The notes under the pieces: model-generated
What the model saw: only the letters and a program-made list of their open reading frames with translations
Databases searched by the model: none
Told to the model about the DNA's origin: nothing
Origin: Candidatus Moraniibacteriota bacterium
GTDB lineage: Bacteria; Patescibacteriota; Minisyncoccia; Moranbacterales; UBA1568
Direction: 5' to 3'
Assembly (NCBI GenBank): GCA_963743885.1
Contig: CAVURJ010000002.1
Span: forward strand, 36,721-100,720
DNA: 64,000 bases
Program-made: the position numbers and the translations under genes
Part shown: in pieces, positions 2-34,145 of the stretch
Layout of the letters: each line of letters begins with the position of its first letter
Position numbering within the stretch: position 1 is the stretch's first letter

Positions 2-1426
2 CAAGCAAGCGGGCAGAAAGTTGAAGATCTCCATAAGCATGTCGTCGATCTGATCGAAGTGCCGTGTGATACGTGCGGTGCTGCAATGAAGCGTATCCCA
101 GATGTGCTCGATACGTGGTTTGATTCCGGCTCGATGCCGTATGCCCAGGAGCACTATCCGTTCGCGAACGAGGAGCATTTTAGCAAGAGCTTCCCGGCGG
201 ACTTCATCGCGGAGGGCGTCGATCAGACGCGCGCCTGGTTCTACTATCAGCATGTTCTTGGTACGGCGATCAAGGGGAGCGTTGCCTTCAAGAATGTCAT
301 CGTGAACGGCATCGTGCTCGCTGAAGATGGCAAGAAGATGTCAAAGAAGCTCAAGAATTATCCGGATCCGATGGAGGTGGTCAATAAGCATGGCGCCGAC
401 GCGCTCCGTCTCTATCTCCTCTCGTCGCCGGTCGTCGCAGCGGAGAATCTCAACTTCTCCGAGCGCGATCTCTCGGAGGTCACACGCAACGCGTTCCGCA
501 TGCTCTGGAACTCGTATTCATTCTTCATGACGTATGCCAGCGTCGACCAATGGCAGCCAACAGTTAACAGTCAACAGCCAACGAACTTGCTGGATCGGTG
601 GATCCTTTCCGAATTGCAGATGCTCATCAAGAATCTCGATCAGTCGATGGAAGCGTACGAGATTAACAAAGCGGCGCGCCTTTTCACGCCGTTTATCGAC
701 AATCTCTCGAACTGGTACATCCGTCGTTCGCGCGAGCGTTTCTGGAAGAGCGAAGATGATGGCGATAAGGAACAAGCATACCAGACGCTCTACGACGTGC
801 TCGTGACACTCTCGAAGCTCATGGCTCCTTTCACGCCGTTCTTGTCCGAAGAGATCTACCGCAACCTGACCGGCGAAGCATCTGTACATCTCGCCGATTG
901 GCCGGTAGCTGATGAGAAGTTGATTGATAATGATACGCACGAGAGAATGATGATAACGCGAAACCTGGTGACCCAGGGGCTTCAGAAGCGTACACAAGTA
1001 GGAATAAAGGTGAGACAGCCATTGGCATCTGCGAGCATCTTGGCTGATTTGCCGGCAGAATATAGGGATATCATCAAGGATGAACTGAATGTTAAAGATG
1101 TTATCTTTAGTGTTGCCGAGAGCCTGAAGATGGAGGAGGATATAACGCTTGATATCAATCTTACCGAAGATCTCAAGCTCGAAGGTGAGATGAACGAGAT
1201 CAATCGTGCTATCCAGGATGGGCGGAAGAAAGCGGGCTTCAATGTGGAAGATCGCATCACGCTCGGCTACATCGGCAAGGAGAAGGTCTTCGAGAAGTTT
1301 GGCGACGAGATCGCGAAGAAAGTCCTCGCAACCTCCGTCACGAAGGGTGACCTCGCCGATGCCGAGTATCGCGAAACCGTCACGATCGAAGGTGAAGAGT
1401 TCTCATTCAGTCTGAAAAGAATATGA
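2..1426 (+). CDS. ileS: Isoleucyl-tRNA synthetase, C-terminal ~475 aa (5' end lies outside the window)
   Basis: Open frame from base 2 with no stop. Class I KMSKS signature 'KMSKKLKNYPDP', preceded by 'DTWFDSGSMPYA' and 'DQTRAWFYYQ' blocks typical of IleRS. Stop overlaps the next ATG (ATGA at 1423-1426). Confidence 0.88.
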   Translation, partial: QASGQKVEDLHKHVVDLIEVPCDTCGAAMKRIPDVLDTWFDSGSMPYAQEHYPFANEEHFSKSFPADFIAEGVDQTRAWFYYQHVLGTAIKGSVAFKNVIVNGIVLAEDGKKMSKKLKNYPDPMEVVNKHGADALRLYLLSSPVVAAENLNFSERDLSEVTRNAFRMLWNSYSFFMTYASVDQWQPTVNSQQPTNLLDRWILSELQMLIKNLDQSMEAYEINKAARLFTPFIDNLSNWYIRRSRERFWKSEDDGDKEQAYQTLYDVLVTLSKLMAPFTPFLSEEIYRNLTGEASVHLADWPVADEKLIDNDTHERMMITRNLVTQGLQKRTQVGIKVRQPLASASILADLPAEYRDIIKDELNVKDVIFSVAESLKMEEDITLDINLTEDLKLEGEMNEINRAIQDGRKKAGFNVEDRITLGYIGKEKVFEKFGDEIAKKVLATSVTKGDLADAEYRETVTIEGEEFSFSLKRI

Positions 1427-1962
1427 GCAACGATATCGGCAATTGGCAGGAGCTTGAACGGGAAGAGATATTCAAGAAATACGGACGAGGAATAGAGCGT
1501 GTGCGCTTTCGTCTGCCCAAGGGGAATGAGTCTGATTTCTATCTCCGCTCCGGTCATGACAGCATCGCTTGTTTGGCGCTGACGAAAGACCAGCAGGTAA
1601 TCCTCGTGAAGCAGTTTCGGCCAGGTCCGAAGAAGGTGCTTCTGGAGCTTCCTGGCGGCGGGCTGAATCCTGGCGAATCTTTGGAACAGGCGATGGAACG
1701 AGAACTTCTGGAAGAGACCGGTTATAAGGGGAAAGCGCAATTTCTGACGAGTATCATTCCTGATGCCTATTCCCAGTCGTTCAAGAACGCCTTTGTCGTG
1801 CTTGATTGTGAGAAAGTGGCTGAACCGAAGCTCGAGGATAATGGCGAGGAAGTCGAGGTCGCGCTCATGTCACTCGATGAATTCCGGACGCATATCCATA
1901 CCGGTCAGATGACGGATGTGGAAATCAGCTATCTCTGCCTTGATCACCTCGGATTGTTGTAA
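1423..1962 (+). CDS. NUDIX hydrolase
   Basis: Canonical Nudix box GX5EX7REUXEEXGU in 'GGGLNPGESLEQAMERELLEETGY'. 179 aa. Start overlaps the ileS stop, so translational coupling is likely. Confidence 0.85.
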   Translation: MSNDIGNWQELEREEIFKKYGRGIERVRFRLPKGNESDFYLRSGHDSIACLALTKDQQVILVKQFRPGPKKVLLELPGGGLNPGESLEQAMERELLEETGYKGKAQFLTSIIPDAYSQSFKNAFVVLDCEKVAEPKLEDNGEEVEVALMSLDEFRTHIHTGQMTDVEISYLCLDHLGLL

Positions 1963-1981
1963 TTGTTTTTGAAAAAAGAAA

Positions 1982-2016
1982 AGCCCGCCGGACTGGTTGT
2001 AGTCGGCGGGTTTTTG
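1982..2016. terminator. Bidirectional intrinsic terminator between NUDIX (+) and a convergent minus-strand gene
   Basis: Stem cccgccg/cggcggg followed by TTTTT on plus and preceded by an A-run (T-run on minus). Confidence 0.7.
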
Positions 2017-2026
2017 ATTTTGTGGG

Positions 2027-2884
2027 CTATCTGATTTCCGCGAGCGTTCCGTCGCAGAGGCGGCGGAGCGGCACAGGGGAATCGTCGTGGTAGATGAAGC
2101 CTTCGGCAATCGGATGGTCTTTGCAGAGCTTGCCGCAATCGAGGCAGAGAGCTTTGTCGGCATAGGCGCTTTCGATCGTTCGGAGCTGCGTCCTTGGGAA
2201 TTCCATCTTGGAATAGAAGGCCGTGCATTTCTCCCAAGAGTCGACGACCTTTCCAGTGGTTGCATCGGTCCATTCCGTATATGGACAGACGGAGTATGCG
2301 TCGGTTTCGTGTGCGGATGTGCCGGACTGGATGTATTTCGTCGCGATGATTTCCGGCCGCTGCTTGTTTGCTGTCGATAGGCGGAGCGGTGGTGATCCAT
2401 GCTTGAAGTGATGGAAGAGTCCGAATGGGTCGATGCTTGCTGGCGCTTTCCCGTGTCCGGATTCGTTTCCACATCGGGTGCAGAGAGAGTGCCACCAGAT
2501 GAGGCCGATATCTTGGCCGTTGGAGTTGTTCCATCCGCCGTATTGTCCGACGATAATCGGAGTAGTTCCTTCCATACGAGGAGTGTCACAAATTGGGCAA
2601 CGCGAAGGGACTTCAGCGAAGGTATGCGACGTTGCGTCGATGCGCTTCGTAGAGCTTGATGCGATCGCAGAGCGTTTTTGGGAGGTCTGTGCGTGCAATC
2701 TGAAGCAATGCTGATCCTTCCACGAGGAAAAAACTGTTTGCTTGTATTCCTCGAGGGTGGACTGTCCCCAACGTCCTATCGAATAAATCTTTGCTTTTCG
2801 ATGTTCGACCCGCATCATGATGCCGACGATGATATGCCTGATGACATGGGAAATCGGACGTTTGGTGAGGAAAGCGATGTTCAT
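2027..2884 (-). CDS. Hypothetical Cys-rich protein (285 aa), possible metal-binding; family not recognised
   Basis: Start set at the internal Met 'MNIAFLTK' because AAAGGAG lies 7 nt upstream. A TTGACA-17-TAAAGT promoter sits upstream on the minus strand. Multiple Cys pairs (CPIC, CTRC, CLDC). Confidence 0.6.
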   Translation of the reverse strand: MNIAFLTKRPISHVIRHIIVGIMMRVEHRKAKIYSIGRWGQSTLEEYKQTVFSSWKDQHCFRLHAQTSQKRSAIASSSTKRIDATSHTFAEVPSRCPICDTPRMEGTTPIIVGQYGGWNNSNGQDIGLIWWHSLCTRCGNESGHGKAPASIDPFGLFHHFKHGSPPLRLSTANKQRPEIIATKYIQSGTSAHETDAYSVCPYTEWTDATTGKVVDSWEKCTAFYSKMEFPRTQLRTIESAYADKALCLDCGKLCKDHPIAEGFIYHDDSPVPLRRLCDGTLAEIR

Positions 2885-2932
2885 GACGACTCCTTTCTCA
2901 GTATTCGGTTGGGAAATAACGATTTTCACGGC

Positions 2933-2961
2933 ACTTTAGCAAGTTTGACTCAGGTTGTCAA
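2933..2961 (-). promoter_or_regulatory. Sigma70-like promoter (TTGACA-17-TAAAGT) for the 2027-2884 gene
   Basis: Read on the minus strand: -35 TTGACA, 17-nt spacer, -10 TAAAGT. About 45 nt upstream of the AAAGGAG RBS. Confidence 0.5.
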
Positions 2962-3045
2962 AAGCTAGAGAAAAGCGGAAAATAGATGATGCTAGGCAAT
3001 ATTTCCGTATCCGATACATGATACATACTACGGGATACTTGATAC

Positions 3046-3774
3046 ATGCACATGGAGCTCCGCTACAACGCCGTCATCCTGAAGAAGAAAGAAGTGGGGG
3101 AGACTGACCGTCTCTACACTTTGTATACTTCGAAGCATGGCAAGGTGCAGACGGTAGCGAAAGGCGTGCGCAAGCCGGAGGCCAAGCTCGCGGGTCAGCT
3201 CGAGACGCTCATGCATGGGCTGGTCATTGTGGTGAAGGGGAAGGGCGCGGGCAAGATCGCCGGAGCAGTAGCGGAAAATGTTTTCCCGCATCTTCGGACG
3301 GACGGCGATATTTTGCGGAGGGTCCTCGATACGGTGAACGTCTTCGAGCGTCTCGTCGGATGGGATGAGTCGGATCCGGATCTCTTCCGGCTCCTCTTGG
3401 AGTACCTGCTTCTTGCTGATGGATTGGCAGAAGGGAAGAGGCGCGAAAAGATCGAGCTTCTTTCGGAAGGATTCCTCATGCAGCTCTATGCGCATCTCGG
3501 TTATCGCATCGAGACGGGGACGTGCGCGGTCTCGGGGGAGAAGCTCCGTTCCGGCGAGCAGCACTTCTTCAGTCCGAGCCAGGGTGGGGTGCTCGCGGGC
3601 GGGCATCATCATGGCGATGGCCATACGTTTCCCATCTCCGAGACAGCGATCAAATATATCCGGCTGTTTCTCAATAACCGTCTGGAAAGTCTGGAAAAGG
3701 TCCAGGCGACGGAACGTGAGCTTCGGGAGCTTCGCACGATCTCTTCGCGGTTTTTCCTTTGGATAGAGCGTTAA
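3046..3774 (+). CDS. recO: DNA repair protein RecO
   Basis: N-terminal OB-fold signature 'RLYTLYTSKHGKVQTVAKGVRK' typical of RecO. 242 aa. Confidence 0.65.
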   Translation: MHMELRYNAVILKKKEVGETDRLYTLYTSKHGKVQTVAKGVRKPEAKLAGQLETLMHGLVIVVKGKGAGKIAGAVAENVFPHLRTDGDILRRVLDTVNVFERLVGWDESDPDLFRLLLEYLLLADGLAEGKRREKIELLSEGFLMQLYAHLGYRIETGTCAVSGEKLRSGEQHFFSPSQGGVLAGGHHHGDGHTFPISETAIKYIRLFLNNRLESLEKVQATERELRELRTISSRFFLWIER

Positions 3775-3790
3775 TGTCGCTCTTTGAGCC

Positions 3791-3819
3791 TTGACAAGAT
3801 CTCTGTAGAGGTGTATAAA
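3791..3819 (+). promoter_or_regulatory. Sigma70-like promoter TTGACA-17-TATAAA
   Basis: TTGACA at 3791-3796, 17-nt spacer, TATAAA at 3814-3819. AAAGGAG RBS follows at ~3863. Confidence 0.6.
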
Positions 3820-7804: not shown

Positions 7805-9066
7805 TGGCAGGCTGTATACCAAGATTTCGTCTCGAGCCGGTCGTGGGTGCGTATCGTCGAGGTGTGATTGTTACGGCATCGGGAACCATAAAAACGCCTT
7901 TTTTCATGCCGGACGCGACGAGGGCTGCAGTGCGTGGCGTGACGCCGGATGAAATCAGGGCGAGTGGCATTTCGGCGCTCGTCGTGAATACGTATCACCT
8001 CATGTTACAACCTGGCGAAGCGCTGATAAAAAAGGCAGCAGGACCTGCCCGCAATGCTACGCCCGCCAGCAACGCTTTGCGTAGCAATGCGGACTGGTAT
8101 AGCGTTGCAGGCGGGGGGATTCATCAGTTCATGGGCTGGGCTGGTCCGACACTTTCGGATTCTGGCGGATACCAGGTGTATTCGCTTATCCATAGGAATC
8201 CAGAGATGGGTCGGATCACTGAGGATGGCGCTGAGTTCAAGTCGGTCCTCGACGGCTCGAAGCACCTGCTCACGCCGGAGCGAGCGATCCAGATCCAGTT
8301 TGATCTTGGGGTTGATATGATGGTGTGTCTTGATGACCCGCGTCCGAATAGCGCCGGGGAAGCCGAGGTAGCAGAAGCAGTGGAGCGGACACTCCGCTGG
8401 GCGAAGCGTTGCAAAGATGAATATACGAAGCAAGTCACAGAGCGCGGGCTGACCGAAGAGACGAGGCCGCTCCTTTTCGGTGTGGTGCAGGGTGGGATGT
8501 TTGTGGACCTGCGCGAGCATTGCGCGTCAGAGCTTGCGGCGATCGGCTTCGATGGGTACGGTTTCGGTGGACGGCATATCGATGAGGAAGGCGTTTTTCT
8601 CGAGGAGATCGTTGCGAAGACCGCGGCTGCTATCCCGAAGGATGCGCTCCGGTTCGCGCTCGGCATCGGGACGCCGTCAGATATCGTGCGCTGCCACCTT
8701 CTCGGTTGGGACATGTTTGACTGTGTGATACCGACGAGAGAAGGACGGCATGGCCGTTTGTTTGTCATGAATGACAAGCAAACGGAATTTCCAATTTCCA
8801 ATTTCCAATTTCCAAATAATGATCAAAATCTCAATGACCAAAATGAAGAGGGATCTTTCTATCGAACATTGAATATCAATAATGAACAGTACGGCGAGGA
8901 TTTTTCGCCAGTCGATCCGACGTGCGATTGTGAGCTGTGTACGAAGCATACGAGGAGCTATCTCAAGCATCTCTTCAAGGTAGCGGATCCGCTGGCTGGC
9001 CGTCTCGCCTCACTTCATAATCTCCGCTTCTACGCTCGGCTCATGGAGCGGCTGCGCGGAGAATAA
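7801..9066 (+). CDS. tgt: Queuine tRNA-ribosyltransferase (tRNA-guanine transglycosylase), with two in-frame inserted segments
   Basis: 'TPFFMPDATRAAVRGVTPDEI', 'LTDSGGYQV'-like block, Zn site 'CDCELCTKHTRSYLKHL'. Extra segments at nt 8045-8105 and 8786-8850 relative to canonical Tgt. Confidence 0.85.
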   Translation: MMAGCIPRFRLEPVVGAYRRGVIVTASGTIKTPFFMPDATRAAVRGVTPDEIRASGISALVVNTYHLMLQPGEALIKKAAGPARNATPASNALRSNADWYSVAGGGIHQFMGWAGPTLSDSGGYQVYSLIHRNPEMGRITEDGAEFKSVLDGSKHLLTPERAIQIQFDLGVDMMVCLDDPRPNSAGEAEVAEAVERTLRWAKRCKDEYTKQVTERGLTEETRPLLFGVVQGGMFVDLREHCASELAAIGFDGYGFGGRHIDEEGVFLEEIVAKTAAAIPKDALRFALGIGTPSDIVRCHLLGWDMFDCVIPTREGRHGRLFVMNDKQTEFPISNFQFPNNDQNLNDQNEEGSFYRTLNINNEQYGEDFSPVDPTCDCELCTKHTRSYLKHLFKVADPLAGRLASLHNLRFYARLMERLRGE

Positions 9067-16382: not shown

Positions 16383-16416
16383 CTGTTAACGGGTTCACGA
16401 GTTAACGGGTTATCGG
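16383..16416. repeat. GTTAACG-module repeat (member of the HpaI-site palindromic family)
   Basis: ctGTTAACGggttcacgaGTTAACGggtt, i.e. tandem units built on the 8-bp palindrome CGTTAACG. Confidence 0.6.
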
Positions 16417-16483
16417 AAAGAAAACCTGGATCCCGGCTCGAAGGCCGGGATGACAGAAAGAGAAGATGTTTTTTGGAAAAATG

Positions 16484-16774: not shown

Positions 16775-18235
16775 ATGACTGAAAATACCGAAAACAAGCC
16801 TTTTTATATCACGACGACGCTGCCGTATGTGAACGGCAAGCCGCATGTCGGCTATGCCATGGAAATCATCCAGGCGGACGTCATTGCCCGGTTCCATCGG
16901 CTAGCCGGGGATGAGGTGGTCTTCAATATCGGGACGGATGAGCATGGGCAGAAGATCTATCAGAAGGCGGCCGAGCTCGGCCAGACGCCGCAGGAGTACT
17001 GTGACGCGATGTCGGAGCATTTCCGGGCGCTTCGTGATCTGCTCGGGGTGAGCTTCACACACTTCGTCCGGACGACGGATGAGCATCATATCGCGGCGGC
17101 CCAGGTGTTCTGGCAGCGCTGCGCGGACAATGGAGACATCTATAAGAAGCAGTACCAGGTGAAGTACTGTGTGGGTTGCGAGCTTGAGAAGACGGATTCT
17201 GATCTTGATCATGGCAAGTGTCCGGATCATCCGAACATGGAGCTTGAGTTGATCGATGAAGAGAATTATTTCTTCCGGTTCTCGAAGTACCAGCAGCCGC
17301 TCCTCGATCTCTATGCAGCGCGGCCGGATTTCGTCGTGCCGAGCAATCGGCTGGTAGAGATCAGGAACTTCGTTGAAAAAGGATTGCAGGACTTCAGTAT
17401 CTCGCGTGTGAGAGAGAAGATGCCGTGGGGGATCGCGGTGCCAGGTGATGACAGTCAGGTGATGTATGTCTGGTTCGATGCGCTTGCGAACTACATCACG
17501 ACGCTCGGCTGGCCGGAGAACGAGGCGGACTTCGCGAAATTTTGGCCGGGGACCCAGATCGCCGGCAAGGACAACCTGCGCCAGCAGTCGGCCATGTGGC
17601 AGGCGATGTTGCTTTCCGCTGGTCTTGAGCCGTCGCGGCAGATCCTGATCCATGGGCATATCCTTTCTGCTGGACAGAAGATGTCGAAGAGTCTCGGCAA
17701 CGTAATCGCGCCGGAGGAGCTGACGGAAAAATTCGGTACCGATGGGACGCGCTACCTTCTGCTCGCTTCGGGCAACCTTGAGAGCGATGCTGACATCACG
17801 ATGGAACGTCTGGCGGAGCAGTACAATGCGCATCTCGCCAACGGACTCGGCAATCTCGTGTCGCGGGTGATGAAGCTTTCGGAGAAAATCAGTGAACAGT
17901 CAGCAGCTAACAGTCAGCAAGATGCTGAGAGTACCGAAGGCGAGAAAGTGTTGCTTGATAGCGTGGCAGGATTCATCAGCGAGTATCGTTTCGCTGATGC
18001 ACTCGGCAGGATATGGGAGGTGGTGCGCGAGGCCAACCGCTTCATCGATGAAGAGAAGCCGTGGGAGCTTGTGAAGACCGATCAGGTGAGATTTGATGCG
18101 GTCATGCGGCAGCTTCTGGCCAATATTGCGCTTATCGAAGTGGCACTCCAGCCGCTCCTGCCCGGGACAGCCGAGAAGATCAACCAGGCGCTCGCAACCG
18201 GTGTGACGGAGCCGTTGTTTAAACGTATCGCATAG
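16775..18235 (+). CDS. metG: Methionyl-tRNA synthetase
   Basis: HIGH-region 'PYVNGKPHVGYAMEI', Zn knuckle 'CVGCE...CPDH', KMSKS 'KMSKSLGNVI'. Confidence 0.9.
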   Translation: MTENTENKPFYITTTLPYVNGKPHVGYAMEIIQADVIARFHRLAGDEVVFNIGTDEHGQKIYQKAAELGQTPQEYCDAMSEHFRALRDLLGVSFTHFVRTTDEHHIAAAQVFWQRCADNGDIYKKQYQVKYCVGCELEKTDSDLDHGKCPDHPNMELELIDEENYFFRFSKYQQPLLDLYAARPDFVVPSNRLVEIRNFVEKGLQDFSISRVREKMPWGIAVPGDDSQVMYVWFDALANYITTLGWPENEADFAKFWPGTQIAGKDNLRQQSAMWQAMLLSAGLEPSRQILIHGHILSAGQKMSKSLGNVIAPEELTEKFGTDGTRYLLLASGNLESDADITMERLAEQYNAHLANGLGNLVSRVMKLSEKISEQSAANSQQDAESTEGEKVLLDSVAGFISEYRFADALGRIWEVVREANRFIDEEKPWELVKTDQVRFDAVMRQLLANIALIEVALQPLLPGTAEKINQALATGVTEPLFKRIA

Positions 18236-18443: not shown

Positions 18444-19857
18444 ACAGGTCCCCGCGTCGCCAAGGATGGAAAAGGAGGCTCTGAGCATCAGCGTAGCCGA
18501 ACTAGGCGATGTCGCCGCCGCTCGGCGCGTGCATGAGGCGTTTCAGAAGGCATTGGTTGCGGCTGATGTAGAGAAAGATTTCTCTATAAGTAGAGGAGGT
18601 TTAGAAGAGATGAAGGCGTATGGTGAACGCGTGGGCGTTTCCCAGGAGAATATCGAGAATCTTGGTCGGGAGATGGGCATCGAAGAGGATCTGGTAGAGG
18701 TCGATCGTGAGGAAATGGTCGTCAGGAACCGTTTTAAGAATCGGCTGCGCCGGTTGGCAGCGCAAGCAGCAGCCGTCATATCGCTCATGTCTCCGAATAT
18801 GTCCCGTGCGGACGAATATATCCAAGAGCCGACTACCTATAGCCAGCCGGCTGAGCCGATTGGACAATCTCAGACTGAAAAGGCATCTGGTGCGGACAGC
18901 GCGGTCCAGGCAGAAGCGGAAAAGCCGGATACTCGGGTCGTGCAGACCGCTGAGATGTCGGATGAGGAATGGGCTCAGTATGTCGCTCGTGAGGAGCAGT
19001 ACCAAGCCAGAGTCGCGTTTGAGAAGGAATTTCGCGAGCGTCAGTTTTCGAGCGAAGATGAAGTGCTGCAAGCTTTGCATGAAGCTGCATCGGGGCATGA
19101 GAATGAATTCCTGGCTGTTTATACGGTCGGGACAGGCGGACGTATCGAGGTTGCTTTCGGAGGGTTCGGCGAAACGGACAGTGTGGCTGGTCCAGATATC
19201 GTGAAACAGGCGCATGATTTGAGATCCGAAGGGAAGAAAATCGTATTTGCGCATACGCACCCTCTTGCGGTATCGAGACGGGCTGCTGCTGCGATGTCGA
19301 CCGAAGGTGCGTTCGAGCGCATGCCGCCGAGTCTTACTGATCTCAGATCCGCTTCTTTGTTTGATTGGCTGGACAGATATGATAATGCCGATAATCGGAA
19401 TGAAATCGACAAGCTGCTCAATGCGACTGAAGTGGTGGCCGTGGATTCTGAAGGCGTTTGGAGGTTTCGTGTTGATTTTTTTCATCCCTATTTTCAGGAG
19501 CAGCGCGAGGCGGCTATAGCGAGTGCTACGATGAAGCACGCACTGACTGGAACGGCAGATGTTTCTAACCTGAAGAAGGTTGAGACGTTTTATTCGCAGG
19601 TGGTCATACCGGACAGCATAGTCATGGAAAAGATGATGCGGACCGCGACGCAAGATCTCCGTGAAGACGGTGCTGCGTTGGCGATTGCGAGTATGACCGG
19701 CTCTATCGTATCCGGTGGCGGGTATGAGTTTACGAACGAACAGATGAAGGTTGGTACTGCTGTCACGCCAGAGAAGAAGACTTCTGCGACAGAGACTTTT
19801 ATAGGGTTTTGCAAAGAAAGAGGCATTGATATCTCCTTTACGCCTTTCAGCCATTAG
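18427..19857 (+). CDS. Hypothetical protein, 476 aa, with a possible degenerate JAB/MPN-like metal motif
   Basis: 'IVFAHTHPLAVS...PPSLTDL' resembles H[ST]HP...PSxxD of JAB/RadC-like domains but with atypical spacing. The antisense 417-aa ORF is Arg/Cys-rich and was rejected. Confidence 0.55.
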   Translation: MAKNPEQVPASPRMEKEALSISVAELGDVAAARRVHEAFQKALVAADVEKDFSISRGGLEEMKAYGERVGVSQENIENLGREMGIEEDLVEVDREEMVVRNRFKNRLRRLAAQAAAVISLMSPNMSRADEYIQEPTTYSQPAEPIGQSQTEKASGADSAVQAEAEKPDTRVVQTAEMSDEEWAQYVAREEQYQARVAFEKEFRERQFSSEDEVLQALHEAASGHENEFLAVYTVGTGGRIEVAFGGFGETDSVAGPDIVKQAHDLRSEGKKIVFAHTHPLAVSRRAAAAMSTEGAFERMPPSLTDLRSASLFDWLDRYDNADNRNEIDKLLNATEVVAVDSEGVWRFRVDFFHPYFQEQREAAIASATMKHALTGTADVSNLKKVETFYSQVVIPDSIVMEKMMRTATQDLREDGAALAIASMTGSIVSGGGYEFTNEQMKVGTAVTPEKKTSATETFIGFCKERGIDISFTPFSH

Positions 19858-19925
19858 GTATCTAGTATCTTGTATTATGTATGGGGGATTTCATACATGA
19901 TACATAATACAGTATACGTAATACG

Positions 19926-21053
19926 ATGCTAGACATTCACGCCCATCTGTACTGGGAGAGCTATGACGCTGATCGCGATGAGATGATCCGGCGCGCTTTC
20001 GACGCGGGTATTGAAAAAATGATCTGCGTGGGGACGGAGCCCGAGGATAATCCGCGCGCCATAGAGGTTGCCGAGAGGTATGAGGGTGTGTATGCTTCCG
20101 TAGGGATACACCCCAGCTTTTTGGATGAGATTGAAAAAGAAGTAGATAGTATATCGAATATCGTATATCGGGACGGATCCGGCATACGACATACGGCATA
20201 CGACATACGGCCGGAGATAATGGAGCGGATCCTGGTGCAGGTAGACAACCTTAAGAGAGTAGCGCAATCTTCGGACAAAGTCATAGCGATCGGAGAGTGC
20301 GGACTGGATTATTATGTGCGCAACGAACAGTCAACAGTTAACAGTGAACAGGGAACAGAAAACAGCGAACAGGGAGTAAAAGAAACAGCGGACGCACCGC
20401 TCAAAAGCGGAACGACCGTTGTTTCTGAAAAACAGAAAGCGATACAGAAAGAGGGGTTTCTGGCGCAGATGGAGGTTGCTCGTGAGCTTGGTGTACCGCT
20501 CATCATCCATACCAGGCCCTCCGCCGGCACTATGGATGCCTACGAGGATCTGTTTCAGATCCTGACTCACAACTTACAACAGACAACGAACAACTCTCCC
20601 ACCCCTCAGTCTCGCGGACTCGACAGCTCCCCTCGGGCAGAGGAGCAGGAACCACAAGCTAACGAATCCGCTAAAAATCACTTATCACTTATCTCTCATC
20701 CCTTATCTTTTGCTATCCTGCACTGCTATCAGGGCGATACCGAAATCACGAAGAAATTTCTCGAATTGCCGAATGTCTATTTCTCATTCGCGGGGAGCAT
20801 CACCTATTCAGTGAAGAAGGCTTTGGTTGGGACGAAAGACGATCCGTCGGAAGTCGTGAAGCTTGTGCCGCTTTCGCGGTTGTTCGTTGAGACTGATGCG
20901 CCGTTTCTGGCCCCGGTGCCGCATCGCGGGGAGCGTAATGAGCCGGCCTATGCCATCGCGACTGCTGAGAAGGTCTGTGAGTTGAAGGGGTGCAGCCGAG
21001 AAGAGCTTGATCAAGCGCTCCGGACGAGCTTTGAGCATGTATTTGACAAATGA
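19926..21053 (+). CDS. tatD: TatD-family metal-dependent nuclease/hydrolase, with low-complexity insertions
   Basis: N-terminal 'MLDIHAHLYWESYD...GIEKMICVGT...YASVGIHP' and C-terminal 'FVETDAPFLAPVPHRGERNEPAYA' TatD signatures. 375 aa against ~255 typical. Insertions at nt ~20170-20215, 20320-20380 and 20570-20700. Confidence 0.8.
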   Translation: MLDIHAHLYWESYDADRDEMIRRAFDAGIEKMICVGTEPEDNPRAIEVAERYEGVYASVGIHPSFLDEIEKEVDSISNIVYRDGSGIRHTAYDIRPEIMERILVQVDNLKRVAQSSDKVIAIGECGLDYYVRNEQSTVNSEQGTENSEQGVKETADAPLKSGTTVVSEKQKAIQKEGFLAQMEVARELGVPLIIHTRPSAGTMDAYEDLFQILTHNLQQTTNNSPTPQSRGLDSSPRAEEQEPQANESAKNHLSLISHPLSFAILHCYQGDTEITKKFLELPNVYFSFAGSITYSVKKALVGTKDDPSEVVKLVPLSRLFVETDAPFLAPVPHRGERNEPAYAIATAEKVCELKGCSREELDQALRTSFEHVFDK

Positions 21054-23095: not shown

Positions 23096-23166
23096 GTTTA
23101 CGGGTTAACGGGCTAACGAGTTAGAAGGTCTATGAACGCGTTAACTCGCAAACTCGTTAACTGGAT
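23096..23166. repeat. GTTAACG-module palindromic repeat (atpB|atpE junction)
   Basis: cgGGTTAACGggctaacgagtt ... aacgCGTTAACtcgcaaactcGTTAACtgg. Left and right halves are reverse complements (aacgagtt/aactcgtt). Confidence 0.6.
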
Positions 23167-23242
23167 AACTGGATTTGGTGGACAGATACGGAAAATCGCT
23201 CTATAATGGTCAAATGTTAGTAAATTAATCAGTTTTAATTAA

Positions 23243-24125: not shown

Positions 24126-24527
24126 ATGAGGCTTTCCATAAGACAATATGCGTTGGCGCTCCTCGATATCGAGCAGGGGATGAGTGCTGATGAGGCGAAG
24201 GGAGCCGGAGAGCGATTTGCTCTCTGGCTTTCGCGCCGTGGAGAAGGACGGAAGCTTGCGAAGATCGTAGCGGAAGCGGAAACGATCGCTCGGGATCGGA
24301 GCAATAAGACGGAGGTCGCGATCACGACGGCATTCGAAGCTGATCAGGAGACGAGGGGGATCCTCACGGGATATGCGGAGAAGTTGTTTCCTGGTAAGCA
24401 TATCGAAGCTGAGTTCCGATCCGATCGGGATATCATTGGTGGTATGACGATACGGAGCAGCGAGACGCTGTATGACGGATCGCTCGCCGCCTCGGTGAAA
24501 AAGCTGCGCACAAGTCTCATGAGGTGA
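24126..24527 (+). CDS. atpH: F0F1 ATP synthase subunit delta (short form)
   Basis: OSCP-like C-terminal 'IGGMTIRSSETLYDGSLAASVKKL'. 133 aa. Operon position. Confidence 0.7.
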   Translation: MRLSIRQYALALLDIEQGMSADEAKGAGERFALWLSRRGEGRKLAKIVAEAETIARDRSNKTEVAITTAFEADQETRGILTGYAEKLFPGKHIEAEFRSDRDIIGGMTIRSSETLYDGSLAASVKKLRTSLMR

Positions 24528-24650
24528 TTTAAGATTTTGGATTTAGGATTTAGGAATAGGATCGTCCAAGCCTCCATTCTTGAATCATAAATCTTAAATC
24601 GTGAATCAGATTCTAAATTCTAAATTCTAGATTCTAAATTCAATCGTATG
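24527..24650. repeat. AT-rich heptad tandem-repeat tract (ATTCTAA/ATTCTAG units)
   Basis: gattctaaattctaaattctagattctaaattc plus ggatttaggatttagga. 7-bp period. Lies in the atpH|atpA gap. Confidence 0.6.
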
Positions 24651-26147: not shown

Positions 26148-26149
26148 TT

Positions 26150-26214
26150 ATTAACGGGTTAACGCGTTAACGAGTTGTATTTCTAACACGTTAACTCGCA
26201 AAACTCGTTAACTG
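26150..26214. repeat. GTTAACG-module palindromic repeat (atpA|atpG junction)
   Basis: attaacgGGTTAACGCGTTAACGAGTTg ... cacGTTAACtcgcaaaactcGTTAACtgg. Confidence 0.6.
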
Positions 26215-26229
26215 GAGAATAAGAAACTC

Positions 26230-29665: not shown

Positions 29666-29687
29666 TTACTGTTGTTTGGTTAACGAG

Positions 29688-29740
29688 TTTGGCGAGTTAA
29701 CGAGTTGAAAAACCCGTGAACCCGTTAACGCGTTAACGGA
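29688..29740. repeat. GTTAACG-module palindromic repeat (atpD|atpC junction)
   Basis: gGTTAACGAGTTtggcgaGTTAACGAGTTgaaaaacccgtgaacccGTTAACGCGTTAACGg. Confidence 0.6.
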
Positions 29741-30255: not shown

Positions 30256-30263
30256 GGTGTCCG

Positions 30264-30968: not shown

Positions 30969-31018
30969 GATGATCTCCTTGTAGATGTTGCGGAAAAAAT
31001 ATTGTCAAACAACAGCGT

Positions 31019-31047
31019 ATTATACATCCATTGTATTTAAAAGTCAA
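31019..31047 (-). promoter_or_regulatory. Consensus promoter TTGACT-17-TATAAT (minus strand) for the 30264-30968 gene
   Basis: Minus-strand -10 TATAAT = plus 31019-31024. -35 TTGACT = plus 31042-31047. 17-nt spacer. Confidence 0.65.
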
Positions 31048-31238
31048 GCATAGTTTCTTGAAAAAAAGCCTCATTTCCGGTAGAGTGGGTAGGTGATACA
31101 TGATTCTACCCCTATGCCCGGTAGTAGAACTTCGACCGGGTATTGGAATCCTTATTATAAAGCATGATTTCGGAGAGTAAACATTAATGGAGGCTTTCTC
31201 AGTTTTTAAAAAGAATTGTCGAAGTTTCACTACCGGGT

Positions 31239-34145
31239 ATGGCTCAAAAAAACTACAATCCGAAGGCAATCGAGGCGAAGTGGCAGAAGTATTGGGAGAA
31301 GCATGGTACGTATCGTCAGTATAGCCGCAAGCAGGGCTTCTATGTGCTCGATATGTTCCCGTATCCGTCGGGAGCAGGACTCCATGTCGGTCATCCGCGC
31401 GGATATATTGCGACGGATGTTGTGGCGCGCTTCAAGCAGCTTGAGGGTTGCGGTGTGCTCCATCCGATGGGATGGGACGCGTTCGGGTTGCCAGCTGAAC
31501 AGTATGCTCTCAAGAACAAGGTGCATCCGTCGATCGCGACCAAGAAGAATGTCGCGACGTTCAAGAAGCAATTGGAGAAGATCGGTCTCACCTATGATTG
31601 GGAGCGCGAGATCAATACGACCGATCCGGAATATTATAAGTGGACACAGTGGATCTTCCTAGAGATGTGGAAGCGGGGCTTGGCATACGAATCGAACGAA
31701 CCGATCAATTGGTGCCCGTCATGCAAGACCGGTCTTGCCAATGAGGATTTGGAGCAGGGGAAGTGCGAGCGTTGCGGGACAGTCGTCGAGAAGCGGCCAC
31801 TCCGCCAGTGGGTGCTTGCCATGACCAAGTATGCTGACCGGTTGCTCAAGGATCTCGATAGTAAGGACCTTGATTGGAGCGAGTCGATCAAGGAACAGCA
31901 GCGTAATTGGATCGGACGGAGCGAAGGTGCTGAGGTTGCCTTTCCGATTGTCGGGACCGAAGAAGAGCTCCGCGTGTATACAACGCGCGTCGATACGATT
32001 TTCGGGTGTACGTACGTCGTGGTCGCGCCTGAGCATTCTTTGCTGAAGAATCAAGAATCAAGAATCAAGAATCAAGAGGAAGTCAGAAAGTATATAAAGA
32101 AGGCGGCGAACAAGTCTGATCTTGAGAGGACGGAACTGGCGAAAGAGAAGACCGGCGTGAAGCTCGAGGGTGTCGAGGCGATCAACCCATTCGATGGGGC
32201 GAAGGTCCCGGTGTATGTCGCGGACTATGTGCTCGGTTCCTACGGTACAGGCGCGGTGATGGCGGTCCCGGCGCATGATGAGCGCGATTTTGAGTTTGCG
32301 AAGAAATATAGTTTGCCGATCAAGCTTTCAGTGGCGCCGTTTTTTTCTGACACAGAAGGTAAAGATGCTGTACGAAAAGACAAGCCGACGGTGCGACGGC
32401 GGACCGCTTATGCGCTCGTCAAGCATTGGAGCGAGGACAAATATATTTGCCTGGATTGGGAGAAATTCGGATGGCATTCGGGGATCATCGGTGGCATCGA
32501 AGAAGGCGAGGACCCGATTGTGGCGGCTTCTCGTGAAATTATAGAAGAGACTGGCTATCAGAATCCGGTATTTGTAAAGTATATCGGGGAAGCGATGCAC
32601 AATTATTTTTATGCCGCTCACAAGGAAGTGAACCGTTATGCGGATGGTGTTGGGATGCTGTTTCAATTGAAGAACGGTAAATGGAACGAGCCAGACAAAG
32701 AAGAAACAAAAAACCATAAGGCAGTCTGGATTTCTGGCGACGAGATGACATCATTCCTTACACTGAGAAACTTCCAATATATGTGGGAAGTCTTGAAAAA
32801 GGGAGAGGAGTGCTATACAGAAGACGGGGTACTCATCGATTCTGGAGAGTTCACTGGGCTTGCGTCGGCAGAGGCAAGGAAGAAGATGACAGCATGGCTC
32901 TCGAAGGAGAAACTTGGCAAGAAGAAGGTGAACTACAAGATGCGTGATTGGACGTTTAGTCGGCAGCGCTATTGGGGCGAGCCGATCCCGCTCGTACATT
33001 GTGAGTTCTGTGGCATCGTGCCGGTGCCGGAGAAAGACCTTCCGCTTCTTCTTCCAAAGGTGAAGTCGTATGAGCCGACCGATACGGGCGAATCGCCGCT
33101 TGCGGCTATCTCGAAGTGGGTGAATACCAAGTGCCCGCAGTGCAAGGGGCCGGCCAAGCGCGAGACCAATACCATGCCGCAGTGGGCGGGTTCGAGCTGG
33201 TACTATCTTCGCTATATCGATCCGAAGAACAAGAAGGCTCTTGTCGACAAGAAGAAGGAGCAGAAGATGATGCCGGTTGATCTCTATGTCGGCGGGACGG
33301 AGCATGCGACAAGACACCTTCTCTATGCACGTTTTTGGCACAAGTTCCTCTATGATATCAAGATCGTCTCTGGCAAGGAGCCGTTCAAGAAGCTCGTGAA
33401 CCAGGGGCTTATCGTGGCATCTGATGGCCGTAAGATGAGCAAGCGCTGGGGCAACGTGGTCAATCCAGACGATATGATCGCAGAGTTCGGGGCGGACGCA
33501 TTCCGTACCTATGAGATGTTCATGGGGCCTTTTACACAGTCGATTGCCTGGAATACCGAAGGTCTTGTCGGGACGCGGCGGTTCCTTGAGAAAGTCTGGA
33601 GACTTTCTCAGAAAACAGTTAACAGTCAACAATCAACGGGGAATAAGAATATTGAGACGTTGCTTCATAAGACAATCAAGAGCGTGACAGAAGATATTGA
33701 AGGATTCAAGTTCAATACAGCGATTAGTTCGCTCATGATTCTTGTGAACGCCCTCGAAAAAGAGCCAGAAATATCACTCATCACTTATCGGACATCTCTT
33801 ATCCTCTTAAGTCCGTTCGCCCCGCATATCGCGGAAGAGCTGTGGTCGCAATTGAAGAATCACCCTTCGACAGGCTCAGGGTCATCCAAAACGGAAGAGA
33901 AATCAATATTCCTTGCTGAGTGGCCGAAGTGGGACAAGAAGAAAATCGTTGAGGAGACGGTGAATGTCGCCGTACAGGTGAATGGTAAGGTGCGCGCTGT
34001 GATCGCGGTCGCCGCTGGAAGCGATGAGGCTGCTGTGAAGGCGCAGGCGCTCGCCGATGCGAACGTACAGACACATATCGCCGGTAAGAACGTCCGTAAG
34101 GTAATCTACGTTCCTGGACGAATCTTCAATATCGTTGTGGGATAA
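31239..34145 (+). CDS. leuS: Leucyl-tRNA synthetase carrying an in-frame inserted NUDIX hydrolase domain
   Basis: 'PYPSGAGLHVGHPRGY' HIGH region, 'TTRVDTIFGCTYVVVAPEH' editing-domain T-rich region, 'KMSKRWGNVV' KMSKS. About 163 aa inserted between 'YSLPIKLSV' and 'DGVLIDSGEFTGL' contains a perfect Nudix box 'GGIEEGEDPIVAASREIIEETGY'. Confidence 0.9.
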   Translation: MAQKNYNPKAIEAKWQKYWEKHGTYRQYSRKQGFYVLDMFPYPSGAGLHVGHPRGYIATDVVARFKQLEGCGVLHPMGWDAFGLPAEQYALKNKVHPSIATKKNVATFKKQLEKIGLTYDWEREINTTDPEYYKWTQWIFLEMWKRGLAYESNEPINWCPSCKTGLANEDLEQGKCERCGTVVEKRPLRQWVLAMTKYADRLLKDLDSKDLDWSESIKEQQRNWIGRSEGAEVAFPIVGTEEELRVYTTRVDTIFGCTYVVVAPEHSLLKNQESRIKNQEEVRKYIKKAANKSDLERTELAKEKTGVKLEGVEAINPFDGAKVPVYVADYVLGSYGTGAVMAVPAHDERDFEFAKKYSLPIKLSVAPFFSDTEGKDAVRKDKPTVRRRTAYALVKHWSEDKYICLDWEKFGWHSGIIGGIEEGEDPIVAASREIIEETGYQNPVFVKYIGEAMHNYFYAAHKEVNRYADGVGMLFQLKNGKWNEPDKEETKNHKAVWISGDEMTSFLTLRNFQYMWEVLKKGEECYTEDGVLIDSGEFTGLASAEARKKMTAWLSKEKLGKKKVNYKMRDWTFSRQRYWGEPIPLVHCEFCGIVPVPEKDLPLLLPKVKSYEPTDTGESPLAAISKWVNTKCPQCKGPAKRETNTMPQWAGSSWYYLRYIDPKNKKALVDKKKEQKMMPVDLYVGGTEHATRHLLYARFWHKFLYDIKIVSGKEPFKKLVNQGLIVASDGRKMSKRWGNVVNPDDMIAEFGADAFRTYEMFMGPFTQSIAWNTEGLVGTRRFLEKVWRLSQKTVNSQQSTGNKNIETLLHKTIKSVTEDIEGFKFNTAISSLMILVNALEKEPEISLITYRTSLILLSPFAPHIAEELWSQLKNHPSTGSGSSKTEEKSIFLAEWPKWDKKKIVEETVNVAVQVNGKVRAVIAVAAGSDEAAVKAQALADANVQTHIAGKNVRKVIYVPGRIFNIVVG

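What the first reader, a model, noticed from the sequence alone, without database searches (positions are those of the whole stretch)
557..33639. In-frame (N)NAACAG heptad microsatellites inside four housekeeping genes (ileS, metG, tatD, leuS), all encoding a TVNSQQ-like peptide
ileS 557-584 (ccaacag ttaacag tcaacag ccaacga), metG 17893-17920 (tgaacag tcagcag ctaacag tcagcaa), tatD 20324-20372 (7 consecutive NNAACAG units) and leuS 33612-33639 (aaaacag ttaacag tcaacaa tcaacgg) carry the same 7-bp-period repeat. It is centred on an HpaI-like GTTAACAG core and translates to QPTVNSQQPT / SEQSAANSQQ / NEQSTVNSEQGTENSEQG / QKTVNSQQST. These segments sit in regions that are insertions relative to canonical enzymes. 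In-frame spread of a short repeat into essential genes recalls Rickettsia palindromic elements, but the 7-bp periodicity, which is not a multiple of 3, is unusual. It implies selection for whole-insert lengths that preserve frame.
Basis: seen in the sequence. Interest (0 to 1): 0.75.

Follow-up and report, generated by a model that had tools for sequence, protein, structure and literature searches.

The report
In-frame 7-base repeats in essential genes
The four tracts are real, but they are the coding members of a genome-wide population of 7-base tandem repeats (like the cyanobacterial STRR repeats) in a small clade of CPR bacteria, sitting in tolerant protein loops and changing their repeat unit without changing loop length, rather than being insertions of a mobile element.

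Summary
Observation confirmed. All four (N)NAACAG tracts are where stated, in ileS, metG (degenerate), tatD and leuS, and far exceed chance.

The tracts are one unit family among about 25 period-7 arrays in the window. Other units include AAGAATC, AATTTCC, ATCACTY and GACGACT. About half fill intergenic spacers as array/loop/reverse-complement hairpins.

Four syntenic Moranbacteria-like relatives share the period-7 excess, at 5-18 times a 761-kb background. More distant relatives do not.

The ileS and leuS tracts are not insertions, because loop length is conserved across 15 relatives each. The tatD and metG tracts vary in length.

At the same loops of leuS, tatD, atpG and tgt, relatives with 73-90% identical LeuRS carry different heptad units, often at identical length. 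Changes are concerted across units (AACAG to AACGA in all four).

TYAACAG equals the unit recalled as cyanobacterial STRR3 and dominates a genome-wide scan. No palindrome, fixed length or structure supports an RPE-like element.

Best explanation: misalignment-driven heptanucleotide repeats filtered by selection (tolerant loops, no in-frame stops). New here are the CPR host, the in-frame location in essential genes, and length-neutral unit turnover.

The parts
554..584 (+). ileS AACAG-family heptad tract (CAGCCAA CAGTTAA CAGTCAA CAGCCAA CGA), encodes QPTVNSQQPT in the loop just before the Anticodon_1 domain
   Evidence: same loop length as 14/15 relatives; the relatives' DNA (L126, L127) is not periodic
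17888..17920 (+). metG degenerate AACAG/AGCAG tract, encodes SEQSAANSQQ after the last helix of the catalytic domain
   Evidence: shared with L001 (which has 7 aa more); absent from L003 (7 aa shorter)
20324..20375 (+). tatD site-2 tract, 7 consecutive NNAACAG units, encodes NEQSTVNSEQGTENSEQG
   Evidence: lies in the pLDDT<50 loop 134-162; L001 has 4 units of the same family here, L003 has AAYGAGC units
33607..33639 (+). leuS linker tract (AAAACAG TTAACAG TCAACAA TCAACGG), encodes QKTVNSQQST
   Evidence: not an insertion; L124, L209, L125 and L208 carry other heptad units at the same site
32042..32081 (+). leuS editing-domain site, perfect (AAGAATC)4.6, encodes KNQESRIKNQE
   Evidence: L124 (AATTTCC)4, L125 AACAG family, L209 (AATATCA)3.5 at the same site
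33767..33803 (+). leuS third site, ATCACTY-family array (ATCACTC ATCACTT ATCGGAC ATCTCTT)
   Evidence: L124 and L208 have AGCTGAA, L125 has AGCTACY, with identical length
20141..20212 (+). tatD site-1 arrays (ATATCGA)3 and (CATACGR)4
   Evidence: L001 has AATCACC and L003 has AATTTCC arrays at the same site
20673..20703 (+). tatD site-3 ATCACTT-family array
   Evidence: the same family in L001 and L003
26835..26867 (+). atpG array (ACGACTG ACGACGG ACGACTG ATGACAG)
   Evidence: L125 has the same family, L124 has (AAGAAAC)4, and L003 has no array and is 7 aa shorter; the G variant avoids an in-frame TGA
8783..8819 (+). tgt array (AATTTCC)4.3, encodes FPISNFQFP
   Evidence: L003 has (GGATACA)4 in the same loop, L126 has none
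19853..19926 (.). intergenic heptad hairpin (GTATCTN arm / ATACNNN arm) ending at the tatD start codon
   Evidence: z -6.4
24520..24644 (.). intergenic heptad arrays (GATTTAG / TAAATC hairpin, then (ATTCTAA)4) filling the atpH-atpA spacer
   Evidence: z -3.6
38390..38496 (.). intergenic hairpin of GAATCNN / TTCTTGA arrays (the same unit family as the leuS AAGAATC array), ending 2 nt before an ORF start
   Evidence: z -5.5
23096..23174 (.). intergenic period-8 GTTAACGR hairpin (atpB-atpE spacer); the counterpart of L125's period-7 TTAACAG hairpin

Best explanation
The four tracts are coding-region members of a lineage-wide population of heptanucleotide tandem arrays. These are simple-sequence repeats of the same kind as cyanobacterial STRRs, and the unit TYAACAG is identical to the one I recall as STRR3 (CAACAGT). 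The source is a Moranbacteria-like CPR/Patescibacteria genome. The arrays are made and continually remodelled by a mutational process that works in a 7-nt register. I infer this to be strand misalignment during replication or repair. In non-coding DNA the arrays expand freely and pair up into hairpins that fill the spacers between genes. Inside genes only a filtered subset survives. Survivors lie in sequence-tolerant surface or disordered loops, use units (or unit variants) that give no in-frame stop, and have net lengths that keep the frame. Because a 7-nt unit cycles through all three frames every 21 nt, each unit family yields one characteristic 7-residue peptide (TVNSQQS for TCAACAG). In length-constrained loops of essential enzymes the arrays do not behave as insertions. 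The unit is replaced or homogenised in place, with concerted changes across all units at constant length. This points to templated correction between misaligned neighbouring units (transient misalignment or short-patch conversion) and not to stepwise gain and loss of units. Shown: the existence, statistics, distribution, orthologous positions, unit switching, stop avoidance and lack of structure. Inferred: the molecular mechanism and the absence of a specific function.
For: Period 7 alone is in excess: 14 strict arrays against 0.4 in shuffles in the window, and 9-17 arrays with essentially no other period in syntenic relatives L003, L124 and L125/L001. Density is 0.22-0.76 per kb against 0.043 per kb in 761 kb of diverse LeuRS loci, and 0 in the more distant L126 and L127. 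The window catalogue has 25 arrays, 14 of them in or at the edge of the ~13% of DNA that is intergenic. Intergenic pairs fold as long hairpins, z -2.3 to -6.7, while coding AACAG tracts are unstructured. In relatives the AACAG family also forms intergenic hairpins (L001/L125 9000-9082 = 2275-2371; L003 14956-15075). Orthologous loops carry different units: leuS linker, editing site and third site in five relatives; tatD sites 1-3; atpG; tgt. Array columns of leuS are 43-54% identical between relatives, against 76-81% elsewhere. Loop length is conserved for the IleRS and LeuRS tracts. The AACAG to AACGA change affects all four units in L125. Stop filter: all perfect coding arrays use units that are stop-free in every frame, and units containing TGA or TAA are interrupted exactly at the in-frame position. 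The TatD tracts lie in pLDDT<50 loops. The same unit dominates filamentous cyanobacteria in the genome scan, about 100 of 120 loci, and there 11-14% of arrays lie in long ORFs. In-frame KTVNSQQS and QQSTVNSQ also occur in Bacteroidota. Literature: heptanucleotide repeats are the most abundant long-SSR class in many bacteria, with a polymerase-slippage hypothesis, and inverted pairs are known in Xanthomonas and Nostoc (PMC4679880, PMC4692102).
Against: Simple slippage changes length by 7 nt, which is a frameshift in an essential gene. It therefore does not by itself explain unit turnover at constant length, and the proposed length-neutral templated correction is inferred, not observed. Differences within arrays cluster in 2-3 adjacent unit positions, with a conserved core and variable spacer (174 observed against 155 +/- 4.8, 0 of 4000 simulations). 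That is not what random decay of identical units gives. Coding selection explains part of it, but intergenic and cyanobacterial arrays show it too. All three class Ia synthetases in the window carry the same family, and the IleRS and LeuRS tracts lie in homologous loops, a coincidence the neutral model does not predict. L208 and L209 have perfect arrays in leuS loops but almost none elsewhere, so those loops are hot spots for reasons not yet understood. No strain-level polymorphism could be examined.
Confidence: 0.7

Rival explanations
1. Dispersed arrays exchange sequence. Coding arrays are overwritten by short-patch ectopic gene conversion or template switching from other arrays of the genome's own repertoire (a 'cassette' model), rather than being homogenised from within.
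For: A limited set of unit families recurs at unrelated sites: AACAGNN, AATTTCC, AAGAATC, ATCACTY and GACGANN. At the leuS editing site each genome uses a family that also occurs in its own intergenic arrays: the window has AAGAATC with 38453 and 39298, L124 has AATTTCC with 1949, and L125 has AACAG with 2275. Same-length replacement occurs in IleRS and LeuRS. ileS and leuS share 26 of 31 nt.
Against: L208 and L209 have perfect leuS arrays but no other arrays in about 14 kb that could act as donors. The AACAG to AACGA and AACAG to AACAA series looks like gradual unit drift in place. The ileS/leuS identity is largely explained by family, phase and stop avoidance. The sample is small (three genomes).
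Confidence: 0.15
2. The tracts are functional. Either they are an RNA or DNA cis-element (an array of AACAG cores with 2-nt spacers read by an oligomeric binding protein), or the TVNSQQ loop is a peptide motif shared by class Ia aminoacyl-tRNA synthetases, for example for co-regulation or a common partner.
For: All three class Ia aaRS genes in the window carry the family. The IleRS and LeuRS tracts sit in homologous loops by profile-profile alignment. The AACAG core is invariant in 7 tatD units while NN varies. Core-plus-spacer repeats are the format of known RNA-binding arrays (TRAP, HutP: my own knowledge). TAACTGA heptamer repeats were proposed as binding sites for a post-transcriptional regulator (PMC4679880).
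Against: Close relatives have other units and other peptides at the same loops: LeuRS TTNDKRLTT in L125, KIENRKSKIE in L208. In L125 the AACAG array sits in a different LeuRS loop. IleRS relatives at 72-77% identity have no tract. Many unrelated cores coexist in one genome, which no single sequence-specific reader explains. tatD, atpG and tgt are not functionally linked to aaRS genes.
Confidence: 0.08
3. RPE-like mobile element. A short selfish repeat inserts in frame into essential genes and spreads.
For: The same short sequence occurs in several unrelated essential genes. tatD and metG vary in length at the tract. Genuine in-frame palindromic inserts do exist in this lineage, in tgt 8048-8118 and in L001 tatD.
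Against: The tracts have no fixed length, no inverted repeat and no secondary structure. They are not insertions in ileS or leuS. They occupy orthologous positions in relatives with different units. They belong to a continuum of period-7 arrays with arbitrary units. The palindromic inserts are different sequences.
Confidence: 0.03
4. Chance similarity, ancestral conserved sequence, or assembly artefact.
For: The LeuRS peptide is shared with or similar to that of close relatives: P0122 is identical, P0123 has KTVNKKQGT.
Against: Shuffle statistics. Independent assemblies from different samples show arrays at the same sites with intact reading frames: L001/L002, L124, L125, L208, L209. Array sites are the least conserved parts of leuS.
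Confidence: 0.02

Closest known systems
Cyanobacterial STRR sequences (short tandemly repeated repetitive heptanucleotides; STRR3 = CAACAGT, described in Calothrix/Anabaena; the unit names are from my own knowledge, the Calothrix heptanucleotides are mentioned in PMC4692102)
   Same: Identical unit (TCAACAG is a rotation of CAACAGT). Tandem head-to-tail 7-nt arrays, many unit families per genome, genome-wide excess of period 7, inverted pairs of arrays forming hairpins, a mainly intergenic location, and within-array variation clustered in a few unit positions.
   Different: The host is a CPR/Patescibacteria lineage with a small genome. In this window the family occurs only inside essential genes. 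Arrays are short (3-7 units) and interrupted. Orthologous protein loops show unit switching at constant length, which I did not find described for STRRs.
Long heptanucleotide SSRs of bacteria in general (Mrazek et al. 2007, as summarised in PMC4679880 and PMC4692102); GGGAATC repeats of Xanthomonas
   Same: Period 7 is the over-represented long-SSR class. Arrays are enriched in intergenic DNA, form inverted pairs, vary in length and sequence between close relatives at conserved positions, and have a proposed polymerase-slippage origin.
   Different: That work noted that coding SSRs are mostly of unit lengths that are multiples of three. Here unit 7 is tolerated in frame in housekeeping enzymes.
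TAACTGA direct repeats of marine Beggiatoaceae, Cyanobacteria and Bacteroidetes (PMC4679880)
   Same: Heptamer direct repeats, 2-6 copies. The reverse complement of TAACTGA (TCAGTTA) is one base from the unit here (CAGTTAA/CAGTCAA). They lie just upstream of start codons, as the intergenic arrays here do, have a similarly patchy taxonomic distribution, and are rarely found inside ORFs at protein peripheries.
   Different: That is a single specific heptamer with stops in all forward frames. Here there are many unit families, and the coding ones are stop-free.
Rickettsia palindromic elements (RPE)
   Same: Repeated DNA tolerated in frame in essential genes, at surface-exposed positions.
   Different: RPEs are discrete palindromic elements of roughly 100-150 bp that are true insertions (my own knowledge). 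The heptad tracts are none of these. Separate palindromic in-frame inserts in tgt and in L001 tatD are the better RPE analogues.
Borg amino-acid tandem repeats (PMC9879509)
   Same: Rapidly evolving, A-rich tandem repeats that arise independently at homologous proteins and create disordered regions. About half are in ORFs.
   Different: All Borg coding repeats have unit lengths divisible by three and are perfect. Here the unit is 7 nt, arrays are short and interrupted, and length is often conserved.

Membership tests
Heptanucleotide SSR / STRR-type arrays | Head-to-tail tandem copies of a 7-nt unit | tested here: met
   TRF and own scan; 3.5-7 units per tract
Heptanucleotide SSR / STRR-type arrays | Genome-wide excess of period 7 over other periods, with several unit families | tested here: met
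   14 against 0.4 in the window; only period 7 in L003, L124 and L125; 5-18x the background
Heptanucleotide SSR / STRR-type arrays | Unit identical to a described STRR (STRR3 CAACAGT) | tested here: met
   TCAACAG is a rotation of CAACAGT. The scan with AACAGTYAACAGTYAACA returned about 100 of 120 loci from filamentous cyanobacteria. The STRR3 name itself is from my own knowledge.
Heptanucleotide SSR / STRR-type arrays | Predominantly intergenic location | tested here: inconclusive
   Met for arrays overall: about 9x denser in intergenic DNA. Not met for the AACAG family in this window (4 of 4 in CDS), although relatives have it in spacers.
Heptanucleotide SSR / STRR-type arrays | Copy-number polymorphism between strains | not testable with these tools
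   No second strain was found and the source contig was not retrievable. Between species, lengths differ at tatD, metG, atpG and tgt.
RPE-like in-frame mobile element | Discrete element of constant length and sequence | tested here: not met
   Tracts are 24-52 nt with a variable number of units and no conserved ends
RPE-like in-frame mobile element | Palindromic / stem-loop forming | tested here: not met
   No inverted repeat; fold z +0.9 to +1.6
RPE-like in-frame mobile element | Insertion relative to orthologues lacking it | tested here: not met
   ileS and leuS loops have conserved length. Only tatD and metG show extra length.
Phase-variation contingency SSR | Unit-number change switches a dispensable (surface or virulence) gene on and off by frameshift | tested here: not met
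   The hosts are essential housekeeping enzymes. Arrays are interrupted and in frame in every relative.
Borg-type aaTR | Coding repeat unit divisible by three | tested here: not met
   The unit is 7 nt. The 21-nt super-period is seen only in tatD. PMC9879509.
Borg-type aaTR | The repeat creates a disordered region | tested here: met
   TatD residues 134-162 and 224-255 have pLDDT<50. Not tested for the aaRS loops.

The most novel reading that the evidence does not exclude
This CPR clade has a mutational (or enzymatic) process that imposes 7-nt periodicity in place. It rewrites tolerant loops of essential proteins to a tandem heptad and then lets the unit drift concertedly across all copies, without changing length. 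This would be length-neutral concerted evolution of in-frame microsatellites, possibly reflecting a distinctive property of the lineage's replicase or repair system. Alternatively, the conserved-core/variable-spacer arrays are read by a period-7 nucleic-acid-binding factor, which would explain why homologous loops of IleRS and LeuRS (and the corresponding domain junction of MetRS) carry the same tract.
Probability: 0.2. Interest if true: 0.75.

Novelty: new variant of a known kind. Interest (0 to 1): 0.5.

Why it matters
Heptanucleotide repeats have been known for 35 years in cyanobacteria, and as the dominant long-SSR class in many bacteria, yet their origin and function are still unexplained. 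This CPR clade offers compact genomes with conserved gene order. Here the same protein loops can be followed through five or more relatives while the repeat unit changes. That makes the turnover mechanism directly testable by comparative and population genomics: slippage, length-neutral templated correction, or exchange between arrays. It also shows that a non-triplet repeat can persist inside essential enzymes. This is relevant to how low-complexity loops and lineage-specific segments arise in CPR proteins. It matters for annotation too, because such tracts could be mistaken for mobile-element insertions or for functional motifs.

Tried and rejected
1. I tried to retrieve the source contig (500 kb) to census the whole genome. 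The exact-protein look-ups for TatD and LeuRS found nothing on record, and the cluster look-up gave no accession or name.
2. I searched for strain polymorphism with a 22-nt flank of the tatD tract in JGI metagenomes. There were no matches.
It gives taxonomic distribution but no count for this genome or its clade.
4. The metagenome LeuRS scan returned mostly distant relatives (45-70% identity). I used it as a background set rather than for dense sampling of the clade.
5. Per-array tests for clustered variation were underpowered; only the pooled test is informative.
6. I checked whether length differences come in steps of 7 aa (three units). This holds for metG (7, 14) and for atpG window versus L003 (7), but not for tatD (5, 8, 20, 23, 28), the leuS editing site (+5, +6) or tgt. 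I rejected it as a rule.
7. Paralogue gene conversion between ileS and leuS is rejected: the families are 23% identical in protein and have no DNA homology around the tract.
8. One coordinate in the stop-codon table (window leuS s3) was wrong. The correct site is 33773-33789, and that row is disregarded.

Full report
**1. What is there**

The four quoted strings are present at the stated coordinates. They lie in frame in ORFs that Pfam identifies as IleRS (C-terminal 474 aa; the gene runs off the window start), MetRS, a TatD-family hydrolase and LeuRS.

AACAGNNAACAG occurs 9 times against 0.08 expected. The three-unit pattern with up to 3 mismatches gives 16 overlapping hits against 0.95 expected. 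All are on the + strand and all lie inside these four tracts. The metG tract is degenerate (TGAACAG TCAGCAG CTAACAG TCAGCAA).

The organism is a CPR/Patescibacteria bacterium near Moranbacteria, judged from its closest homologues. Its own proteins come from one 500-kb contig that I could not retrieve.

**2. The tracts are part of something much larger**

Tandem Repeats Finder lists about 30 period-7 arrays with many different units. In a strict scan (at least 3 units, at least 85% match), period 7 gives 14 arrays against 0.4 in shuffles. Periods 9-15 give none, and period 8 gives three. At a looser threshold there are 25 arrays.

Ten of the 25 lie in coding sequence:
- ileS
- tgt
- five in tatD
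- atpG
- two in leuS

A third leuS site (33773-33789) was found later. The other arrays lie in or at the edge of the roughly 13% of the window that is intergenic, about nine times the coding density.

Intergenic arrays come as array, loop, then reverse-complement array. They fold into long hairpins with z-scores from -2.3 to -6.7. They typically run from the stop codon of one gene to within a few bases of the next start codon.

The coding AACAG tracts have no partner arm and are less structured than shuffled sequence (z +0.9 to +1.6).

All 16 GTTAAC sites in the window lie in arrays. Three are in the AACAG tracts and 13 are in intergenic period-8 GTTAACGR arrays, most of them paired into hairpins.

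**3. Relatives**

I recovered syntenic loci from independent assemblies:
- L001/L125 (one JGI contig)
- L124 (JGI)
- L003 (GCA_018061645.1)
- L208 (GCA_002307715.1)
- L209 (Logan)
- L126 and L127

L003, L124 and L125 share the period-7 excess: 9, 17 and 15 strict arrays, with essentially no other period. Density in the clade is 0.22-0.76 per kb. It is 0.043 per kb in 761 kb of diverse LeuRS loci, and 0.42 per kb in array-ascertained, mostly cyanobacterial loci.

L126 (41% GC) and L127 have no arrays. L208 and L209 have arrays only inside leuS.

In L125 and L003 the AACAG family occurs in non-coding hairpins in the atp operon. At the corresponding spacer the window has the period-8 GTTAACGR hairpin.

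**4. Are the tracts insertions?**

- **LeuRS: no.** Against T. thermophilus LeuRS, the linker containing QKTVNSQQST is 11 residues shorter, not longer. The loop has the same length in all 15 CPR relatives aligned.
- **IleRS: no.** 14 of 15 relatives have a loop of identical length (WEPKxxAKPSxNLLDRW). The window differs from L126 and L127 only by substitutions.
- **MetRS: length varies.** The window is 7 aa longer than L003 and 7 aa shorter than L001, which shares the tract.
- **TatD: yes in part.** The site is 23-28 aa longer than in the nearest relatives. Those relatives also carry shorter heptad arrays at exactly this site: L001 has CAGTCAA CAGATAG CAGTCAA CAGACAA, and L003 has AAYGAGC units.

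An AlphaFold model of TatD (mean pLDDT 73) places sites 2 and 3 in segments with pLDDT below 50, between core elements of the barrel.

**5. Unit switching at orthologous sites**

This is the most informative result.

The LeuRS linker site has the same length in four of the five relatives (one residue more in L125):
- window: AAAACAG TTAACAG TCAACAA TCAACGG
- L124: AAAACAG TCAACAG TCAACAG TCAACGG
- L209: AAAACAA TCAACAA AAAACAA TCAACAG
- L125: CGAACGA CTAACGA CAAACGA CTGACGA
- L208: a perfect (AAAATCG)4

The LeuRS editing-domain site:
- window: perfect (AAGAATC)4.6, with no length change relative to most relatives; its peptide KNQESRIKNQE is close to KNLESRISNLG of P0151
- L124: (AATTTCC)4
- L125: an AACAG-family array
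- L209: (AATATCA)3.5

At a third leuS site the units are ATCACTY (window), AGCTGAA (L124, L208) and AGCTACY (L125), at identical length.

The same pattern holds elsewhere:
- tatD site 1: ATATCGA and CATACGR in the window, AATCACC in L001, AATTTCC in L003
- tatD site 3: the ATCACTT family in all three
- atpG: the GACGACT family in the window and L125, (AAGAAAC)4 in L124; L003 has no array and is 7 aa shorter
- tgt: (AATTTCC)4 in the window, (GGATACA)4 in L003, none in L126

In a codon alignment of leuS, columns that are in an array in any of the three sequences are 43-54% identical. The rest of the gene is 76-81% identical.

The change from AACAG to AACGA in all four units of L125 is concerted. 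It cannot be independent point mutation.

**6. Selection filter**

Every perfect coding array uses a unit with no stop trinucleotide in any rotation: AATTTCC, AAGAATC, GAAACAA, ACAGGAT.

Units that do contain one are interrupted exactly where the stop would be in frame. Examples are ACGACTG in atpG, AGCTGAA in L124 leuS, CTAACGA in L125 leuS, and TT or TG before AACAG.

This also explains much of the 18-nt identity between ileS and leuS. Given the family TYAACAG, the same phase has a one-in-three chance. In the frame that reads N2-A-A, only TC is allowed.

**7. The residual oddities**

A profile-profile alignment of the IleRS and LeuRS families (probability 99.85%) places QPTVNSQ of IleRS on QKTVNSQ of LeuRS. 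By Pfam coordinates the MetRS tract lies at the same domain junction. So all three class Ia synthetases in the window carry the family, and the IleRS and LeuRS tracts are in homologous loops. This is suggestive, but it is a post hoc observation.

Relatives weaken it. In L125 the AACAG array lies in the LeuRS editing-domain loop, while its linker has AACGA units. L208 has AAAATCG there.

Pooled over 57 arrays, the differences between units cluster in adjacent positions more than random placement would give: 174 observed against 155 +/- 4.8, with 0 of 4000 simulations as high. The same holds for the mostly cyanobacterial arrays. Arrays therefore look like a conserved core plus a variable spacer. 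Simple decay of identical copies does not explain this.

**8. Comparison with what is known**

About 100 were from filamentous cyanobacteria (Microcoleus, Tychonema, Calothrix, Nostoc and others). A few were from Bacteroidota, Chloroflexota and others, and one was from another CPR lineage.

CAACAGT is, to my knowledge, the STRR3 heptanucleotide of Calothrix and Anabaena. The three Calothrix heptanucleotides are mentioned in PMC4692102.

In those loci only 11-14% of arrays lie in long open frames, against about 75% of random positions. In-frame cases with the same peptide do exist, such as Saprospiraceae KTVNSQQS and Niabella QQSTVNSQ.

The literature records several related points:
- Heptanucleotide repeats are the most abundant long-SSR class in many bacteria.
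- A polymerase-slippage origin tied to a 7-nt footprint has been proposed.
- Coding SSRs are usually multiples of three.
- Inverted heptamer pairs occur in Xanthomonas and Nostoc.
- TAACTGA heptamer repeats sit just upstream of start codons in Beggiatoaceae, Cyanobacteria and Bacteroidetes.

In Borgs, all coding tandem repeats have units divisible by three.

Searches combining heptamer-repeat terms with Patescibacteria, Candidate Phyla Radiation or Moranbacteria surfaced no paper on heptad repeats in CPR bacteria. I also met no account of length-neutral unit turnover of in-frame heptads in the papers I read.

**9. Verdict**

The interpretation as an RPE-like spread of insertions is not supported.

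The tracts are in-frame members of an STRR-like heptanucleotide repeat population that characterises a small CPR clade. The best-supported mechanism is misalignment in a 7-nt register, followed by selection for tolerant loops, for the absence of stops and for frame. The step that homogenises or replaces units at constant length is inferred.

Three aspects appear new:
- the host lineage
- the persistence of a non-triplet repeat inside essential enzymes
- the concerted, length-neutral unit switching at orthologous loops

I rate this a new variant of a known kind, of moderate interest.

Noticed in passing
window 8048-8118 (tgt): A 25-aa in-frame insert (GPARNATPASNALRSNADWYSVAG) absent from the TGT of L003 and L126. 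Its DNA folds as an imperfect hairpin (z -2.5). This is a better analogue of an RPE-like palindromic in-frame element than the heptads are. L001 MetRS has a similar 13-aa N-terminal insert (PARSSYANSVAGG).
   Followed up: partly
window 16428-16456; L001 6346-6375: The palindrome GGATCCCGG-N-CCGGGATGACAG is intergenic in the window (z -4.75). In L001 it is in frame inside tatD, encoding GSRVRPGMT (z -3.4). The related peptide SGSRVKPGMT occurs in TatD of P0006 and P0042.
   Followed up: partly
window 16383-16412, 23096-23174, 26148-26215, 29679-29737: Period-8 GTTAACGR tandem arrays; three of the four regions (in the atp operon spacers) pair into hairpins. The orthologous atpB-atpE hairpin of L125 is built from period-7 TTAACAG units, so the period itself seems to have shifted concertedly in both arms.
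   Followed up: partly
window 32470-32755 (LeuRS aa ~412-505): A NUDIX domain is inserted in LeuRS. It is widespread among CPR LeuRS homologues (950-990 aa) but absent from the closest relatives L124, L125 and L208 (825-865 aa).
   Followed up: no
window 33855-33890 (LeuRS C-terminal domain): A 12-aa insert NHPSTGSGSSKTEE is shared only by the window, L124 and L125 LeuRS. It is not heptad-periodic.
   Followed up: no
window 20590-20670 (tatD site 3): An insert of about 30 aa (NNSPTPQSRGLDSSPRAEEQEPQANESAKN) is shared with L001 only. It has no significant fold (z -1.55) and its origin is unknown.
   Followed up: partly
window 41654-57292 and 57324-61802: A 5212-aa giant ORF with internal repeats and higher GC (0.56-0.60), followed by a 1492-aa FG-GAP repeat protein with 225-bp tandem repeats. 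Neither contains heptad arrays, unlike the rest of the window.
   Followed up: no
window 19926, 24648, 36330, 38498, 13128 (start codons): Intergenic heptad hairpins end 1-12 nt before the downstream start codon and often begin at the upstream stop codon. This leaves little room for a Shine-Dalgarno sequence and suggests a role in translation initiation or operon mRNA processing.
   Followed up: no
L125 13507-13875 and 16528-16983: Two small genes with 23S_rRNA_IVP / bAvd-like domains (accessory proteins of diversity-generating retroelements) lie near heptad arrays in the relative. No link to the repeats was established.
   Followed up: no
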